DNA of 64,000 bases, taken from assembly GCF_018350175.1 (NCBI RefSeq), contig NC_058368.1, positions 9,920,001 to 9,984,000 of the forward strand, given 5' to 3'. Below the pieces are notes generated by a model that did no database searches, was not told the origin of the DNA, and worked only from the letters and a program-made list of their open reading frames with translations. This document shows, piece after piece, positions 13,510 through 62,982 of the stretch (position 1 is its first letter; the number at the start of each line of letters is the position of its first letter). The DNA is from Felis catus. Its lineage: Eukaryota. A program made the translations under genes and the position numbers.

Positions 13510-13727
13510 GGGGCGCCTGGGTGGCGCAGTCGGTTAAGCGTCCGACTTCAGCCAGGTCACGATCTCGCAGTCCGTGAGTTCGAGCCCCGCGTCAGGCTCT
13601 GGGCTGATGGCTCGGAGCCTGGAGCCTGTTTCCGATTCTGTGTCTCCCTCTCTCTCTGCCCCTCCCCCGTTCATGCTCTGTCTCTCTCTGTCCCAAAAAT
13701 AAATAAACGTTGAAAAAAAAATTTTTT
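13510..13727 (+). mobile_element. Young SINEC_Fc-type SINE
   Basis: TSD AAAAAGGCAGAGTTT; CpGs intact. Confidence 0.95.
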
Positions 13728-14936
13728 AAAAAGGCAGAGTTTATTGGACGCTGGCTGAGCGTTCCAGAACACAAATGCTGGGGGCGTTTCGTGTAGGGAG
13801 AGAGCAAGACTGTCGTGAGGGATGAGAACAGATACATTTGTGACCTTCATGAGCTCACCCCTGGCTCCGTGGCTGTGCCTGTCGGGGTGGGGACGGAAGT
13901 TCAGGCTGGCATAGCATCGCAGGTCTGTTCTCGGGGAGGCAGGAGGAGGTGGGCGCACAAAGGAAGGGCCGCGGGAGTGAAGGGACAGATGGACCAACGG
14001 CCAAGCGGATGAGGGTCGCACCACCCGCACGCCTGGGTTGCCTGAGCAGCCTGCCCTGCTTTGCCAGCCCTTCCGACCAATGTGTCCTGTCAGGGGCTGC
14101 TTCGGGAGAAGGAAGCCGGGAGGAAGCTTCCAGCACAGAGACCCAAAGGGAAATGGCTTTTACGCGCACGGGACTGTTGTCCTATCTTTCCATGTGGAGC
14201 GTATCCTAGAAAAGTCCCTTTCTCTGGCAGCGGTTCTAAGGGGAGGGAACGTCCTCTGCGACAGAATCCACAGCAGTGTTCATTCTCCCATTTATCAACC
14301 GCGGACTCCGTACCCGCCTCAGACCGTGTCCTCGCCGTTGCCTGGAGGACCCCTCGCTTCTGTCTTGCAACAACCACGCTCACCTAACTCTTCCTTGAAG
14401 TCTTAACCAGGATTCGAAGGGGGGGGAAAAAAAAGGAGGCCATTTCCCCAACCTGGCTCGGCTGGCCTTGCAGAGATTCTGAATTCCCTTCTGTGAGTCA
14501 GGCTGGGGGCAATGAATGGCTCTTGCCCCGAGTGCTGAGCACACAGTTCGAGAGCCCGGCCTCCTGTCCGTGTGTGCCCACTGAAAGCTATGAGGCGGAG
14601 GGGAGGGAGGCTCAGAAAGGCCGGCCCCAAAGTAACAGCCGCATGGCCTGTGTCCCCCCACCGTGGAGCCCAGGCAGGGGAGAGAAAAGCCACGGGGGGG
14701 GGGGGGGGGGAAGAGCTCCTGTGACAGAGGATGACGATAGGCAGATGGTGAGAAGCAGTTTCCAGAAACTGGGAAACAGCCCCATCTGACTGCAAGAGAA
14801 AGACCTACCGAAGGAGGGCAGGACGGAAACAGAAAACAGCTGGCCCGGCTGGGCTGGCAGGGACGGGCTTTCTCATTTTGCGGATGAGGAAACTGAGGCC
14901 CAGGGAGGGGAAGTGGTTTGCTCAAGAGCAGATTCT

Positions 14937-15166
14937 TTTTTTTTTTTTTTTAATTTTTTTTTTCAACGTTTATTTATTTTGGGGACAGAGAGAGACAGAG
15001 CATGAACGGGCGAGGGGCAGAGAGAGAGGGAGACACAGAATCGGAAACAGTCTCCAGGCTCCGAGCCATCAGCCCAGAGCCTGACGCGGGGCTCGAACTC
15101 ACGGACCGCGAGATCGTGACCTGGCTGAAGTCGGACGCTTAACCAACTGCGCCACCCAGGCGCCCC
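14937..15166 (-). mobile_element. Young SINEC_Fc-type SINE
   Basis: TSD TCAAGAGCAG(A/G)TTCTT. Confidence 0.95.
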
Positions 15167-25424: not shown

Positions 25425-25472
25425 ATACACGGAAAACTTTTAAAAAGAGAGTGAGGACAAAGAAACATCCAG

Positions 25473-25690
25473 AATATATATATATACATATGTATATATG
25501 TATATGTGTATATATGTGTGTGTGTGTATATATAATATATATGTTATTATATATATATGTTTACTTATATATATGTTTTTATATATATGTTTACTTATAT
25601 ATATGTTTACTTATATATATGTTTACTTATATATATATAAGTTATTATATATAATATTATATATATAAGTTATTATATATATAAGTTTAT
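25473..25690. repeat. Compound (TA)n-rich microsatellite with repeated ATATGTTTACTTAT units
   Basis: Direct reading. Confidence 0.95.
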
Positions 25691-25838
25691 TTCATGGCTT
25701 CTCAACCCGGTAAGTGGTACGCAGGAGGGCATAAGATTCATGAACGGAGTTTTTCAACCTTCCTTCCACAAGGCTGCCCCTATTTGCAATAGAAGCAGCA
25801 CTGTCTTATTCAGGTCATGAATTACATTTGCAAGTTTT

Positions 25839-33218: not shown

Positions 33219-34828
33219 CAGAATCCGAAGCAGGCTCCAGGCTCTGAGCTGGCAGCGCAGAGCCCGACACGGGGCTCGAACTCAAGAACTTCGAGATCAT
33301 GACCTGAACCGAAGTTGGGTGTTCAACTGACTGAGCCACCCAGGTGCTCCTGTCATGATATTTTAAACTTCATTATTATCCCATTTTTTACAGTGATCTG
33401 CGATTAGGGTTCTTTGATGTTATTATGGTCATTGTTTTTGGGGTGCCGGGAACCACGCTGATATAAGAAGGTGAAACGAATGGATAGATGTGTGTGTTCT
33501 GACTGTTCCCCTAACCAACCGTCCCTGTCTCTCTCCCTCTCCTCAGGCCTCCCTGTGCCCTGAGACGCAACGATATTGAAATAAGGCCAGTGAGTCACCC
33601 GACAGCGGCCTTTAAGTGCTCAAATGGAAGGAAGAGTCGTATGTCTCTCACCTTAAATGAAAAGCTAGAAATGATGAAGCTTCGTGAGAAACGTGTGTTG
33701 AAAGCCGAGACAGGCTGAAAGCGAGGTCTCTTGGGCCCAACCGGCAGCCGAGTTGCGAATGAAAAAAGAAAGTTATCGAAGGCCCTTAAAAGTGCGGCTC
33801 TAGTGACCACACAAATAAGAAAGTGAAGCAGCCTTACTGCTGGTGTGGAGGAAGTCTGAGCGGTCTGGATAGAAGGCCAAACCACAGCATTCCCTGAAGC
33901 CAAAGCCTGATCCAGAGCAAGGCTTAGCTCTCTGTAACGCTATGAAAGCAGAGAGAGGTAAGGAAGCCACTCGAGTTTAAAACCAGCAGAGGTGGGTTCC
34001 GTGAGGTTTAAGGAAAGAGGCCGTCTCCGTAACATGAAAGTACAGGGTGAATCTGTAAGCACTCGTGTAGAAGCTACAGCAAGTTCTCCAGAAGATCTGC
34101 CGAAGATAATTCATGAAGGTGGCTACACTCCAGAACAGACTTTCAGTGTAGGCCAAAGTGCCTTCTGTTGGAAGAAGATGCCACCGAGGACTTTCAGAGC
34201 TGGAGAGGAGAAGTCAATGGCTGCCTTCAAAGCTTCAAAGGACAGGCTGACTCTCTCGTTAGGGGCCAGTGCAGCTGATCACTTGAAGCTGAAGTCAATG
34301 CACATTGTCCATTCCAAAAATCCTGGGGCCCTTAAGAACTATGCTAAATCTGCTCTGTCTGTGCTCTATAAGTGGATCAGCAAAGCCTGGAGGACAGCAC
34401 ATCTGTTTACAACATGGCTTACTGAATATTTGAAGCTACTGTTGAGATCTTCTGGTCAGAAAAAAAGATACCTTCCAACAATTCTGCTCACTGACAATTC
34501 ACCTGTCACTCAAGAGCTCTGAAGGAGTTGTACAAGGAGATTAATATTTTTTTTGGATTAATGCTGTTTTCAGGCATGCTAATGCAACATCCATTCTATA
34601 GCTCATGAATCGAGAAGTAACTTTGACTTAGGAGTCTTAAGAAATACATCTTGTAAGGCTAGAGCTGCCATAAATAGTGATTTCTCTGATGGATCTGAGC
34701 AAAGTCCATTGAAAATCTTCTGGAAAGGATTCACTATTCTAGATGCCATTAAGAACATTCATGATTCATGGGAGGAGGTCAAAATATCAACACGCACAGG
34801 CGGTTGGCAGAAGTTGACTCCCACCCTC
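33001..34828 (+). mobile_element. Tigger1 (TcMar-Tigger/pogo) DNA transposon fossil, 3'-truncated and interrupted by a SINE
   Basis: ORF 33992-34522 translates to pogo transposase (FKERGRLRNMKVQGE, EGGYTPEQTFSV, WKKMPPRTF, FKASKDRLTL, KNYAKSAL). Flanks follow the recalled Tigger1 consensus, with frameshifts and stops. Confidence 0.92.
33105..33350 (-). mobile_element. CanSINE with an internal (CA)n, inside Tigger1
   Basis: SINEC body; Tigger1 sequence resumes after it. Confidence 0.92.
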
Positions 34829-42180: not shown

Positions 42181-42250
42181 ATGGATCAGGAAACCGTGGG
42201 CAATATTGTCCTGTTGGCCATTGTCACCCTCATCAGCGTGGTCCAGAACG
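42181..42250 (+). CDS. ALOX5AP: ALOX5AP (FLAP) coding exon 1, 70 nt: MDQETVGNIVLLAIVTLISVVQN+G
   Basis: ATG at 42181 in context GCAAACATGG. Translation matches the FLAP N-terminus. Donor AACG|gtaagg at 42250/42251. Confidence 0.98.
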
Positions 42251-48503: not shown

Positions 48504-48603
48504 GGTTCTTTGCCCACAAGGTGGAGCATGAAAGCAAGACACAGAATGGGCGGAGCTTCCAGAGGACGGGAACACTTGCCTTTGAACGCGTCTACACTGC
48601 CAA
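48504..48603 (+). CDS. ALOX5AP: ALOX5AP coding exon 2, 100 nt: (G)FFAHKVEHESKTQNGRSFQRTGTLAFERVYTA(N)
   Basis: Acceptor ctttccctctgtcag|GG and donor CCAA|gtgagt. Phase 1 in, phase 2 out, continuing the exon 1 frame. Contains the MAPEG FERV motif. Confidence 0.98.
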
Positions 48604-49849: not shown

Positions 49850-51250
49850 ACCTGTCTTTGTGCCATTTGCAGGGGGAGCCGTGAGAGCGCCTCTCAGACA
49901 CTCTGCGTCCGAGAGGTGCGAAGAAGGTGTCTTTGATCAGGGACGACCCGAAACGCTCTCGGCAAACAACCCCGAAGGGCACATTGACGCTATTTGACTA
50001 CTTGGGAAGGAGAAGCTTCTTTCTGCCCAGATCGCCGCGTTATTAGCAGTTGCACCGGGTGGCTCCGTTCCGGAGAGGCCGGGCGGCGCAGGTGACCTGC
50101 GGTGGTTTCCCCCCGCACCTCGTGCGGAAGTTCAGTTTCTGTTTTGGCAGCAACGAAGACGAAGAGGAGACGAAGAGGAGACGAAGAGGAGGAGGCCAGG
50201 CCGTCTGGGTTCTGCCGCGTCCCCCGGGGGGGGGGGGGGGGCCCGCTGGCTCTGCGCCTAAGGAGCGGCTCCGCCCATACCTGGCCCGGGGCGCCAGCCT
50301 CCAAATTGCAGAAGTCGCCCTTTGGTGGCCGCTGCGCTGCGTCATTTGGGAGGGCGGTTTGGAAGTTCCGCAAGGCTGCGGGGTTCCGGGAGGGAAGAAG
50401 GCGCTGGAGGACCGTGGTGGCCCATCCCGGCTGCGCCGGGGGTCCCCACGGTGTGGGCGCGTGGCCCAGCTCCCCAAAGCCACGCGTCTGTGCTTCACCT
50501 CCGTGGGAGGAGAGCCACAAGAATTAGGAGGAGAGGGAGCTGCAGAGCGGGAGCAGCTAAGGGAGAGAGACGGAGAATTTTCTGGAAGAGGGAGGCGGCC
50601 CAGACGCTGCTGTGGTTCTGTTACAAAGACCACTTCCTCCCTGACCCAACTGACGGCACTCTGTGTGCCTGTGGTGGTTTGTCCAAGGGCTGAAAGATCA
50701 GGGCCACGGGCCACCACGTGCTGGCAGAACCCAGAGGCGCCGGTGTGCGTCTGCCAGGAAGTTCCTGCCAAGGGGTCCTGTGTCATAGGGACTCTTCTCC
50801 GGCCGTGGCTCGTCTGGCCCCCAAAGCACCAAAGAGGGTGCGAGCTGAGCCGTGGACGTGCAGCAAGAAAAGAACAGGGATTTAATCTTGCTATCTAAAA
50901 AAATAAGAAATTAAGCTTTGCTCGGTTTCAATACACAGGTCGAGGGCGGTGTGTATGTGATCCCCGTCACAGGGTTGCACGATCAGATCTCCTGGTTGAT
51001 GGGGTGTGAGATCATAAATGTTTCCAGACCACGGCTGTAAAGAAAAACTAGCGTAAAGGATAACTGATGCTGGCGGATTGAAACGCCTGATGCAGGCTTT
51101 TGAGCACCAAATATGACTGCCGAGTGATGCAGATGGTTCGAGATCGGGGCGCGGGGGGGGGGGGGCGTTGATAAACGGGTATCGCGGCTGGGTGTGGCCC
51201 ATCGGCCCCAACGGGGCCCCGGTTAACGGTCTACGAGGGTAGAGCCGAGT
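49850..51250. promoter_or_regulatory. CpG-rich island-like segment in ALOX5AP intron 2, candidate enhancer
   Basis: Visibly CpG-dense with no recognised repeats. ETS cores (CGGAAGT ~50125, CACTTCC ~50631), RUNX TGTGGTT at 50611, GGTTTCCCC at ~50104. Confidence 0.5.
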
Positions 51251-51742
51251 CAGGGTTTGAGAGATAAAAAGAATCTTGACCTTGACTCTGTTCACGTGTG
51301 CAAGGCGTAGTCCAAAGCCCTGTTCCCAGATGATGCGCACAGCTAGAACAGAGCTTGATTTCTGGAGAAAAATCTCAGTTAAACTGACCCAAGATTCTTC
51401 CCCATGATGCTGGTAAGCACGGGCTGCAGAGAGGTGACGGGTCTCTGGAGAAATGTAATTTTCTACACATGTCCCACAGATTACACGTTCCTGGGCTGGT
51501 AACAGGTATTACAGAGGAGAGCAAGTTCTGTAAAACAGGACTTTTGAGAGCTTCTAAGGTACTGAGGAACACTGTGATTCTTGGTTCTCCAAGAAGGGGA
51601 AGTCTTTTTTGAGTACAGATACACCCCCTCCATCCTTTTTTTTGGGCAGATCATATCCAGGGTTTAGTGCTTCACAAAATGCATTTTTTGGAAAATGCCA
51701 CCCTAATGTCCCTTCTCCCCTGCACCTCTCAAGATCCACTTT

Positions 51743-51966
51743 GTTTATTTTTATTTTTTTTAACATTTATCTATTTTTGAGAGAGAGAGAGAGAGAGAGA
51801 GAGGGTGGGGGAGGGGAAGAGAAAGAGGGAGACGCGGAATCCGAAGCAGGCTCCAGGCTCTGAGTTGTCAACACAGAACCCAACGCCGGGCTTGAACCCA
51901 CGAACCGCAAGATCACGGCCTGAGCTGAAGTCGGACGCTTCACCGACTGAGCCACCCAGGCACCCT
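51743..51966 (-). mobile_element. CanSINE in intron 2
   Basis: TSD ATCCACTTT. Confidence 0.93.
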
Positions 51967-52115
51967 TCAGAATCCACTTTAGGCTCACTTCTAAGTAGGG
52001 TGGACTCGTAAATACCTTGAAGCTAATAGTTCTGCATTGATTCCATCCATTAGTATAGCTACTATTACCATTATTAGTGATAATTTACTTGCTTTAAGTT
52101 AACCTAAACAAAACC

Positions 52116-52290
52116 CTTAGTAAGTTCTCCTGCACTTATTCCCGAAGGTGGAGAAAAACAAAAGGGAAAATACGAGTCCCTTTCTCCATGAGCACACAGA
52201 GTGTCGTGCATCACATTGAACACAGCAGAGTGACTTGTCGACAAATCGGGCAAGTGCCTCAGAATCAGACCTGGGGAAATGAAAAGAGCC
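52116..52290 (+). repeat. Left arm of a ~175-bp inverted repeat
   Basis: Aligns by eye to the reverse complement of 53279-53457. Confidence 0.92.
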
Positions 52291-52434
52291 AAGATGGGTC
52301 TGCCAATTTTGTCTCGTAGAAAGAACGGCACAAAACCCTCCACAAAAGAAAATTTGGAGTAATAATAATTTGTCCGCAGGAAAGGCGTTTCCACTGGGGA
52401 CTGTAAGAAGGAAGACATTGGAGAGGTAACAGTC

Positions 52435-52615
52435 ACCGTTTATTGAATGCTTGTTCTGAGCTGGGCACTGCTCTATCTCATTTTATTTTCATAAGCCAGG
52501 GTGGTAATTACTTACGTCTCCACTCACCTCTTATAGATGAAGAAAACTGAGGCTCAGTGCACTCACGCGGCGGCAGAGTAGGCATCGGACCCAGGCTTTG
52601 TGCCTTTAAAGAGCG
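52435..52615 (-). mobile_element. MIR fragment in the spacer of the inverted repeat
   Basis: TTTATTGAATGCTT...TTATAGATGAAGAAAACTGAGGCTCAG. Confidence 0.65.
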
Positions 52616-53278
52616 TGTGAACATCCATCCGGCTCCACCTCAAGGGACGGCCCTGTCACTGACCAATGCCACTTGAATTCAGCCCGGCGGTGGCTCTCTG
52701 CCAAGGAGGGACATATGCGTGGGGAGCTGTGGATCGAAGGCGGGTCAGAGACTCTGGATCGGAAAAAGACTGGCTTGAGCTAGATCGAGGGACAGGAGTT
52801 GGGAGTTTCATTCCAATCCAGACAGACCGTGTTTTATGAGGGACCCGGGTGACTTGAGACAACAGGCAGGAATGATTGAAGGACTGATCCAATGTCACAT
52901 TACTATACCGTTCTCTCTAATGAGCAAATTCCTTAGATAATTAAGCATTTTGAAAAACTGCATCACCCAGCCCAAACCAGTACTCAAATACAAATAAAAC
53001 CAGAAGCATGTGAATGAGGAGGATGTAGGGGCGATCTTTGGCATTAATAGATCATCAAAATTGTTGGAGCCTCAAGTATTAGATCCCATCAGACGTAGAA
53101 CATTATTCAATTAAATAAATAATAACGTGCCCTAGTTTTCTAGGGTCACATTCTCAGTCCCAAGGCTGTGGGTTTGTTCCTCTAATACGTAATAGCTGTG
53201 ACGTTGGGGCGCTCCATAGCTGCGTACGGGACCTGTTTCTTCGCTGAGTACTTCACCCCAAATGATAAGGTGGTTCAA

Positions 53279-53457
53279 GGCTCCTGCCCTTCCTCCGGGT
53301 CTGATTCTGAGGCGCTTGCCGGGTTTGTGGACAGGTCACTGTGCTGTGTTCAATATGATGCACCACACCATCAATGTGTTCGTGGAGAAAAGGACTCGTA
53401 TTTTCCCTTTTGTTTTTCTCCACCTTTGGGAATGAGACACAGAAGTACTTACGTAAG
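53279..53457 (-). repeat. Right arm of a ~175-bp inverted repeat
   Basis: Reverse complement of 52116-52290, with a 35-nt perfect core AAGGTGGAGAAAAACAAAAGGGAAAATACGAGTCC. Confidence 0.92.
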
Positions 53458-53900
53458 TACTACTGTGTCCGCTAGATCAGTGAAACCCCTGGGTACCCAG
53501 CAAGCTCAGCGGGGCTGTGCTCTCTCCCCCTGTGCCTGTATCCCAGGGTAGGATACACTGCTTTCTTACCTTTAATTTCATTGACCTCTCCGGTGGCGGA
53601 TCTTTTGATCATCAGAGGGACATGAAACTTCCTGTGGCCGGGGACACGGCACATCCTCTCTGGGTTCTCTGCGGGGGATGGACCAGGGCTCGGTCATTCC
53701 AGAGTCCTCAATGGTACCACTGAGGCATGAGACGCTATCAGTCTGAATAAGGGTCCGTCGCCGATTTAGGAGGAAAGTCATGAGAACCAGATGAGGGAGG
53801 GTCCAGATGAAGGAATCCAAGGAAGGAATTCGGATAAAAGGCCAAATACGCTTTGAAGAGTGCATCTTTGCTTTGCCTGTTAGTTCGAGTGACATGAGAC

Positions 53901-54105
53901 CAGTGGTTTTCAAACTTGAGTGTGCTTCAGAGTCACCTAGAGGGCCTGTTAAAACAGCCGGCCTGTTAAAACACAGATTGCGGGGCCCCACCCCTGGAGT
54001 GTTTAATTCTGTAGGTCTCCGATGGGCATTAACACTTTCAGTTTTAGCAAGTTCCCAGGTATTCCGGATGCCTGCTGATCCAGGGACAACTCTTTGAGGA
54101 CCACC
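53901..54105. mobile_element. MER5A (hAT-Charlie) non-autonomous DNA element with a small internal duplication (GGCCTGTTAAAACA x2)
   Basis: CAGTGGTTTTCAAACTTGAGTGTGCTTCAGAGTCACCTAGAGGG...CTTTGAGGACCAC matches recalled MER5A ends. Confidence 0.85.
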
Positions 54106-55221
54106 TCACTAGAGCATCAACTCTTAAAGCTTACGTGGATCTTAGAGTTACTATCAGTCTCTTAGCGTTTCAGGTGGGAAAACTGCATCCAAAGTGATTA
54201 TTTTGCCATTGACAAACAGATGGTGAATGTCAGGTCAGAGGCGAAGCCTTAGTCACGTGCCCTTTCCACTCCATCGCGCTGCCCTACCCCATTCACGCTT
54301 CCATGTCTTGTAAGGTGGTTTTTCCACGGATGTACGTGTATATTTTTTTTCTTTTTTCAAGTTTTTATCCAAGGTATAGTTAGTTAAAATATAGTGTCAT
54401 ATTGTCTTCAGGAGTTGAATTTAGTGATTCATCACTTACATACAACACCCGGTGCTCAACGCGACAAGTGCCCTCCCTGAATGCCCATCACCCATCTAGC
54501 CCATCCCCTACCCACCTCCCTCCCTCAACCCTCAGTTTGTTCTCATCATAAAGAGTCCCTTGTGATTTGTTTCCCTCTCTCTTTTTTTCCCCCTTCCCGT
54601 ATGTATGTACATCTATTTTGTTTCTCAAATTCTATATATGAGTAAAATCATAGGGTATTTGTCTTTCTCTGCCTGACTTATTTTGCTCAGCATATCCTCT
54701 GGCTCCATCCACGTCATTGCACATAGCATGAGTAATACTCCATTGTATTTATGTATACCACGTCTTCTTTCTCCATTCATCAGCTGATGGACATTTGGGC
54801 TCTTTTCATAGTTTGGCTATTGTTGATAGTGCTGCTGTGAACTTTGGGGTACATGCACTGCCTTTGAAACTGTACTTTTGTATCCTTTGGGTAACTACTT
54901 AGGAGCGCAATTGCTGGGTCGTAGGGTAGTTCTATTTTTAACTTTTTGAGGAACCTCCATATGTTCTCCAGAGTGGCTGCATCAGTTTGCATTCCCACCA
55001 ACAATGCGAAAGGGTTCCCCTTTCTCCACATCCTCGCCAACATCTGTTGTTTCCAGAGTTGTTCATTTTAGCCATTCTGACAGGTGTGAGGTGGTGTCTC
55101 ATTGTGGTTTTGATTTGTATTTCCCTGATGATGAGTGAGGTTGAACATCTTTTCATATGTCTGTTAGCCATCTGGATGTCTTCTTTGGAAAAACATCTAT
55201 TCATGTCTTCTTATCATTTTT

Positions 55222-58567: not shown

Positions 58568-58638
58568 CCAAAACTGTGTGGACGCGTACCCCACGTTCCT
58601 TGTCGTGCTCTGGAGCGCGGGGCTGCTCTGCAGCCAAG
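58568..58638 (+). CDS. ALOX5AP: ALOX5AP coding exon 3, 71 nt: (N)QNCVDAYPTFLVVLWSAGLLCSQ(V)
   Basis: Acceptor ttttttattctacag|CC and donor CAAG|gtaact. In frame with exon 2. Confidence 0.98.
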
Positions 58639-62900: not shown

Positions 62901-62982
62901 TTCCCGCCGCCTTTGCTGGCCTGATGTACCTGTTCGTGAGGCAAAAATACTTCGTCGGCTACCTGGGGGAGAGAACTCAGAG
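62901..62982 (+). CDS. ALOX5AP: ALOX5AP coding exon 4, 82 nt: (V)PAAFAGLMYLFVRQKYFVGYLGERTQ(S); the final exon lies beyond the window
   Basis: Acceptor tttccctttctccacttag|TT and donor CAGAG|gtaggc. In frame with exon 3. Confidence 0.98.

What the first reader, a model, noticed from the sequence alone, without database searches (positions are those of the whole stretch)
52116..53457. ~175-bp inverted duplication in ALOX5AP intron 2 that I cannot assign to a known repeat
Seen: 52116-52290 is the reverse complement of 53279-53457, with a ~990-bp spacer. In the central 130 nt I count about 14 mismatches and one 2-nt gap (~88%), with a 35-nt perfect core. Both arms give the same spurious peptide DSYFPFCFSPP on opposite strands. 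The arms are not SINE, L1 or MLT sequence that I recognise. The spacer holds an old MIR, so the arms look more similar to each other than the locus is old. Inference: this is a local inverted duplication (possibly homogenised by gene conversion) or the long TIRs of an unrecognised element. In pre-mRNA it could fold into a long duplex (ADAR substrate or splicing modulator). In DNA it could mediate inversion of the 1-kb spacer.
Basis: partly seen in the sequence, partly recalled or inferred. Interest (0 to 1): 0.7.

Follow-up and report, generated by a model that had tools for sequence, protein, structure and literature searches.

The report
Old inverted duplication in ALOX5AP intron
A 175-base piece of an intron in a cat-family ALOX5AP gene has a real, decaying mirror-image copy one kilobase away; it most likely came from an old DNA-copying accident and can fold the unspliced RNA into a long stem, a common and probably functionless feature.

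Summary
52116-52290 and 53279-53457 are inverted copies (149/179 columns, 35-nt perfect core, 988-nt spacer) in mid intron 2 of ALOX5AP. There is no third copy in the window, and no target-site duplication, poly(A) tail or Pfam/Rfam match above cut-off. The arms differ by K2P 0.17±0.03, about as much as older carnivore SINE copies and a third as much as MIR-like copies. A later duplication therefore explains the arm identity without gene conversion or selection. A 34-nt palindrome at the right arm's outer end looks like a fold-back scar and suggests that the right arm is the copy. Best reading: a template-switch or staggered-break event, possibly with the spacer inverted. The pre-mRNA can form a 157-bp stem (45 bp unbroken, -262 kcal/mol), which resembles the human non-repetitive edited dsRNAs. 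The antisense strand folds nearly as well, so no selection is shown. RNA reads were too few to test editing (13 raw reads, none on the core helix). No repeat library, host genome or orthologue was available, so a repeat-family origin is not excluded. Low interest.

The parts
52116..52290 (+). Left arm (probably the original copy; inferred)
53279..53457 (-). Right arm, inverted copy, 83% identical (probably the derived copy; inferred from the fold-back scar)
52145..52179 (+). 35-nt perfect core; with two G-U pairs it forms a 45-bp unbroken helix (52135-52179) on the sense RNA
52291..53278 (.). 988-nt spacer of host intron DNA; orientation relative to the ancestor unknown; no Pfam match above cut-off in the frames scanned
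52495..52559 (+). Best-scoring part of an old MIR-like fragment in the spacer (label recalled; by eye about 52430-52610)
   Evidence: E 0.017; K2P 0.43-0.50 in the 4 of 7 alignments of 80 nt or more
53436..53469 (.). 34-nt palindrome across the right arm's outer end: halves 16/17 to each other and 12/17 each to the left arm; likely fold-back copy of the arm's last 17 nt
52423..52431 (+). Donor-like site in the spacer (exon end 52425, GT at 52426); one laid read ends at 52425 by bin arithmetic
   Evidence: one molecule only
48504..48603 (+). ALOX5AP exon 2 (context)
58568..58638 (+). ALOX5AP exon 3 (context)

Best explanation
A one-off local inverted duplication of unique intron DNA, made by a replication template switch or by repair of staggered breaks, and since decaying neutrally. 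Shown: two inverted arms, no third copy in the window, no mobile-element marks, divergence 0.17. Inferred: the right arm is the copy, and a short fold-back at its outer end left the 34-nt palindrome. The event dates from about the time of the older carnivore SINEs, roughly 25-55 Myr ago at a recalled rate of 2.2e-9 per site per year, and earlier if felid rates are slower. The spacer was either left in place or inverted in the same event; I cannot tell which (about even odds). The pre-mRNA probably folds into the stem and is probably A-to-I edited to some degree (my estimate 60%), as a by-product without function.
For: No third copy in 64 kb (best other BLAST hit 16 nt, E 0.42; two-arm profile, best outside hit E 0.43). 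No direct repeat of 5 nt or more around either arm; around the pair only off-register 5-6-mers. K2P 0.168±0.034 with 16 transitions and 10 transversions, against a median of 0.254 for 276 SINE pairs and 0.43-0.50 for MIR-like copies. No strand preference: 9 G-U against 7 A-C mismatches (P 0.40); sense 157 bp with a longest helix of 45, antisense 158 bp with 44. The palindrome is the only one of 15/17 pairs or better in the window outside one simple-repeat tract at about 25450-25700. Template switches make inverted repeats with or without an inverted spacer (23% and 31% of 794 human-chimp events; PMC5453318 section 6). Staggered breaks give inverted duplications at 17 of 29 fly inversions (PMC1885836 passages).
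Against: No repeat library, host genome or orthologue was available, so single-copy status is shown for the window only, and neither the origin nor neutrality was tested against an outgroup. Two weak hints point the other way: the 35-nt run (P 0.022 whole arm, 0.062 core) and 9 G-U against 3 A-C in the core (P 0.073, boundaries chosen after the fact); the sense duplex is 13.6 kcal/mol more stable. The published template-switch model covers short-range events within one fork, and the MMB-TI screen was limited to templates within 100 bp; this event is longer.
Confidence: 0.66

Rival explanations
1. Two independent insertions or fragments of an interspersed repeat that neither the first reader nor I recognise, lying in opposite orientation by chance.
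For: Inverted repeat pairs are the rule here: 16 of the 17 inverted matches of 80 nt or more within 3 kb in the window are SINE pairs. Over 90% of predicted human dsRNAs are repetitive (PMC11838218 passages). No repeat library could be searched.
Against: No third copy in the window. Neither arm has a TSD, a poly(A) tail, termini inverted to each other or a tRNA-like part. A family with copies only 17% apart would be young enough to keep such marks (inference).
Confidence: 0.17
2. An older duplication kept alike by gene conversion between the arms and/or by selection for the RNA stem (ADAR substrate, or looping-out of a cryptic donor or RNA end in the spacer).
For: 35-nt perfect run (P 0.02-0.06) and core wobble excess (P 0.07). 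It is the only close inverted match of 80 nt or more in 42000-64000. Its length, pairing and energy exceed the medians of edited non-repetitive human dsRNAs (144 bp, 30 contiguous, -185 kcal/mol, 87.5%). One read ends at a donor-like site in the spacer.
Against: The antisense strand folds almost as well. There are 10 transversion mismatches and 4 gap columns. The pair is 3.5 and 5.1 kb from the real splice sites. The matching acceptor is poor (rank 114 of 700). No variant, joint or end cluster was listed in 4 runs, and one RNA-library contig over 26 nt of the core helix shows 0 differences (consensus only, may be DNA). Conserved human dsRNAs are typically short, weak and rarely edited.
Confidence: 0.12
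3. Long terminal inverted repeats of a non-autonomous DNA transposon (foldback/Mutator-like) that captured the spacer.
For: The geometry alone: two inverted 175-nt arms around 1 kb.
Against: No TSD at the outer ends; no Pfam match above cut-off in 20 frames; the outer ends are the most decayed part (77% in the first 30 columns); old MIR-like DNA inside.
Confidence: 0.05

Closest known systems
Template-switch mutations, four-point model (PMC5453318; passages and section 6 read) and MMBIR templated insertions (PMC8421209; passages)
   Same: An inverted copy of nearby unique DNA, with or without an inverted spacer; fold-back creation or perfection of short palindromes.
   Different: Those are short-range events inferred by comparison with a reference sequence; here 175 nt were copied across 1 kb, long ago, and no ancestral sequence is at hand.
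Inversions flanked by inverted duplications from staggered breaks (PMC1885836; passages)
   Same: An inverted duplication of non-repetitive DNA at both ends of a segment.
   Different: Described for large Drosophila inversions; here 1 kb, and inversion of the spacer is untested.
Non-repetitive predicted/edited dsRNAs of the human genome (dsRNAscan, PMC11838218; abstract, passages, section 12 and one supplementary file)
   Same: An intronic long-range stem whose size, pairing and energy are like the edited class (4,597 edited and 492,832 unedited members).
   Different: Editing not shown here; felid locus; conservation unknown.
Recurrent human inversions mediated by inverted repeats (PMC3961182, PMC4576756; passages)
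   Same: Inverted arms around a spacer.
   Different: Those inversions are 5.1-226 kb, with breakpoints in regions of high identity (that study defined highly identical IRs as 1 kb or more at 97% or more); here 179 nt at 83%.

Membership tests
Local inverted duplication (template switch / staggered break) | Two inverted copies close together, above chance | tested here: met
   149/179, E 1e-44
Local inverted duplication (template switch / staggered break) | Arms are unique sequence (two copies genome-wide) | tested here: inconclusive
   No third copy in 64 kb; no genome held
Local inverted duplication (template switch / staggered break) | Outgroup shows a single arm (and, for the inversion type, a reversed spacer) | not testable with these tools
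   All named DNA holders were the same organism; no look-alikes in the scan's other genomes
Local inverted duplication (template switch / staggered break) | Junction scar (microhomology or fold-back) | tested here: inconclusive
   34-nt palindrome at one junction; it could also have arisen later
TIR DNA transposon / MITE | Target-site duplication outside the inverted ends | tested here: not met
   Only off-register 5-6-mers; an old TSD may have decayed
TIR DNA transposon / MITE | Transposase remains or a multi-copy family | tested here: inconclusive
   No Pfam match above cut-off in 20 of the 36 frames listed; genome copy number untested
SINE/LINE pair | Similarity to the SINE/L1 copies, tRNA-like head, poly(A) tail, TSD | tested here: not met
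   in-window copies only, no Dfam
ADAR-edited intronic dsRNA | Long, highly paired stem on the transcribed strand | tested here: met
   157 bp, 88.7% paired, 45 unbroken, -261.8 kcal/mol; prediction only
ADAR-edited intronic dsRNA | A-to-G changes on both arms in RNA | tested here: inconclusive
   13 raw reads, none on the core helix; no difference listed
Conserved functional RNA stem (editing-complementary sequence, SON-type) | Conservation and covariation across species | not testable with these tools
   No orthologue; the strand-bias proxy is not significant
Known RNA family (Rfam) | Match at the family's gathering score | tested here: not met
   Best: mir-2041 on the palindrome, 24.1 bits against 70, E 0.24
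NAHR-mediated recurrent inversion | Long, near-identical arms; both orientations seen | tested here: not met
   179 nt at 83%, 35 nt perfect; no joint listed in 4 RNA runs at thin depth; no DNA run was laid, so polymorphism itself is untested

The most novel reading that the evidence does not exclude
The stem is a selected, non-transposon RNA element of ALOX5AP. It is edited in leukocytes, and by looping out the spacer it gates a cryptic donor or premature RNA end at 52425, which tunes FLAP and leukotriene output in carnivores or more widely. The only support is one read end, two marginal statistics and its being the gene's only close long inverted match in the part of the gene that the window holds.
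Probability: 0.06. Interest if true: 0.5.

Novelty: new member of a known kind. Interest (0 to 1): 0.13.

Why it matters
As a neutral duplication it matters little. It is one more of the many non-repetitive inverted pairs in mammalian introns, though a tidy case for dating and for telling a templated insertion from an inversion-with-duplication once orthologues are aligned. It would matter if conserved and edited, or if it controlled the donor-like site in its loop, because ALOX5AP encodes FLAP, the activating partner of 5-lipoxygenase in leukotriene synthesis (recalled). I found no paper on an inverted repeat or editing in this intron (0 papers; 10 listed, each with 1-2 mentions of the gene, not read; 20 of 2,880 listed, 2 mention the gene, not read). 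The library lacks most subscription papers, and editing databases could not be searched.

Tried and rejected
No whole genome is held. Rfam on 51000-55000: 2 hits, both far below gathering score. Pfam on 20 of 36 frames: 3 hits, all below cut-off. ARAGORN found only the tRNA-like head of the SINE at 51876-51961. A 22-nt arm pattern gave 0 viral contigs and 1 metagenome contig. That contig is ORF-dense, 55% GC, and matches only over the pattern, so I take it as chance. Sequencing runs: 20 of 24 rows hold the stretch. The 14 DNA or unknown-kind rows score 0.99, but they are picked as best holders and 8 may be the source, so they say nothing on spacer polymorphism; no other species was named. Laying 4 of the 24 runs gave 13 raw reads and 6 contigs, with no variant, indel, joint or end cluster. 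The contig and read holes over both arms are tempting, but the tool drops records without notice (X15 holds 0.96 of the words yet only 186 nt were laid), so I draw nothing from them. Strand bias of wobble pairs as a sign of selection: not significant. A 46-nt cassette exon 52380-52425: the acceptor scores -0.9, rank 114 of 700, with recalled frequency tables; rejected. A first MIR profile from 2 copies was too weak (E 0.11). I did not test rebuilt ancestral junctions, because tiles over the spacer ends and the right flank hit nothing else in the window. Earlier notes: nothing near, nothing by sequence, no relatives; the word search gave unrelated items.

Full report
Observation. The pair is real. 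52116-52290 is the reverse complement of 53279-53457 at 149 of 179 columns, with 4 gap columns, E 1e-44 in a self-search of the window. The central 139 columns are 88% identical, the longest perfect run is 35 nt (52145-52179), and the spacer is 988 nt. Exons found with recalled FLAP peptide motifs and read off their splice sites lie on + at 42181 (start codon), 48504-48603, 58568-58638 and 62901-62982. The pair therefore sits in intron 2, 3.5 kb from its donor and 5.1 kb from its acceptor. Homology stops at the stated ends (6 flank tests, P 0.15-0.47). The genome is cat-like, judged from the SINE family and the 'feline' run labels.

Is it a repeat? Within the 64 kb there is no third copy: the best other BLAST hit is 16 nt at E 0.42, and a profile of both arms finds nothing outside better than E 0.43. 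Neither arm has a direct repeat of 5 nt or more around it, and the pair has only off-register 5-6-mers. There is no poly(A) tail, no tRNA-like part in the arms, no Rfam match at gathering score, and no Pfam match above cut-off in 20 of the 36 frames of 30 codons or more. No repeat library and no host genome were available, so 'single copy' holds for the window only. Pattern scans of viral and metagenome contigs gave 0 hits and 1 chance hit.

Age. K2P between the arms is 0.168±0.034. Among 24 SINE bodies in the window, 276 pairs have a median of 0.254 and 14% are at or below 0.168. The MIR-like piece in the spacer (label recalled; E 0.017 against a profile of 7 other copies) is 0.43-0.50 from the 4 of 7 copies that align over 80 nt or more; the other 3 alignments were under 40 nt and are left out. 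The evidence for conversion is marginal: a 35-nt run has P 0.022 when the differences are shuffled over the whole arm and 0.062 over the core.

A 34-nt palindrome, 53436-53469, straddles the right arm's outer end. It is the only one of 15/17 pairs or better in the window outside one simple-repeat tract. Its halves match each other at 16/17 and the left arm at 12/17 each. The simplest reading is that the end of the copied arm folded back and was extended, at the time of the duplication or later. That would make the right arm the derived copy. This is inference.

Mechanism. Template switching is documented to create inverted repeats with the spacer left in place (31%) or inverted (23%) among 794 human-chimp events (PMC5453318, section 6), though that model covers short-range events. 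Staggered breaks leave inverted duplications at 17 of 29 Drosophila inversions (PMC1885836, passages). Inverted templated insertions occur as human germline variants (PMC8421209, passages). Any of these gives the present anatomy, and only an outgroup can say whether the spacer was turned. Recurrent flipping today is unlikely (inference): the validated human cases are 5.1-226 kb with breakpoints in highly identical repeats (PMC3961182, passages).

RNA. On the sense strand the arms form 157 bp (88.7% paired, 45 unbroken, -261.8 kcal/mol), and the stem dominates the fold of the whole 1.4 kb. This exceeds the medians of edited non-repetitive human dsRNAs (144 bp, 30 contiguous, -184.8 kcal/mol), a class of 4,597 beside 492,832 unedited ones (PMC11838218, passages). 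Some editing is therefore likely and would be unremarkable. It is the only inverted match of 80 nt or more within 3 kb in 42000-64000, but 16 inverted SINE pairs meet the same test upstream. Selection is not shown. Mismatches are 9 G-U, 7 A-C and 10 transversions (P 0.40), or 9 against 3 in a core chosen after the fact (P 0.073). The antisense strand gives 158 bp, 44 unbroken, -248.2 kcal/mol. Conserved human dsRNAs tend to be short, weak and rarely edited.

Reads. I laid 4 of the 24 listed runs. They gave 13 raw reads and 6 contigs, most raw reads in the direction expected for sense pre-mRNA in a stranded library, with no variant, indel, joint or end cluster listed. No raw read covers the core helix. 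One RNA-library contig covers 26 nt of it with 0 differences (consensus only; DNA may be present). 8 of the 13 raw reads are under 99% alike, which could be editing, alleles or adapters; the tool does not say. Editing is neither shown nor excluded, and holes over the arms are not evidence. By arithmetic on the depth bins, one single-cell read is laid over 52340-52425 and runs on unlike the stretch. 52426 begins a donor-like GT that ranks 13 of 581 in the intron and 2 of 107 in the laid stretch, scored with recalled tables. It is one molecule; the unlaid part may be barcode or poly(T), and the nearest acceptor is poor (114 of 700). I record it as a lead only.

Literature. No paper in the library holds ALOX5AP with 'inverted repeat' and 'intron', or with 'A-to-I', 'editing' and 'intron'. 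Searches listed only passing mentions (listings seen, papers not read). The one supplementary file held for the dsRNAscan preprint does not name the gene; its large tables were not held and could list the human orthologue.

Verdict. A real, old, local inverted duplication, probably neutral (0.66). Rivals: an unrecognised repeat pair (0.17), a converted or selected stem (0.12), transposon ends (0.05). New member of a known kind; interest 0.13.

Noticed in passing
window 52340-52425 (run X21): By bin arithmetic one single-cell read ends exactly before a donor-like GT at 52426 and runs on unlike the stretch: a cryptic splice, an RNA 3' end or just barcode/poly(T). One molecule.
   Followed up: partly
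window 52481-52510 joined to 52277-52403 (run X19, contig 2): One contig goes back from 52510 to 52277 without splice signals at the joint; probably an amplification chimera or a circularised fragment; the tool did not list it as a joint.
   Followed up: no
window 52120-52125 and 53453-53458: Both outer ends carry a consensus +1 to +6 donor hexamer on the sense strand (ranks 23 and 11 of 581). The second is the fold-back copy of the first, so they are not independent.
   Followed up: partly
window 50000-51200: GC- and CpG-rich stretch with G-runs in intron 2, about 1 kb upstream of the left arm (CpG o/e 0.65 in 50116-52115 against 0.49 for the window); possibly an intronic enhancer or promoter.
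   Followed up: no
window 33962-34522 (+): 186-codon open frame that reads like a fossil Tigger/pogo transposase fragment (label recalled); no similarity to the arms.
   Followed up: no
window 13510-13732 / 14944-15166: Young inverted SINE pair, 96% over 223 nt and 1.2 kb apart: a stronger potential dsRNA than the finding.
   Followed up: no
window 53943-53973: 14-nt perfect direct repeat at 17-nt spacing inside a MER5-like element (label recalled).
   Followed up: no
window 52342-52352: Several oligo-dT library reads appear to end at this A-rich tract, as expected from internal priming (inferred from depth bins).
   Followed up: no
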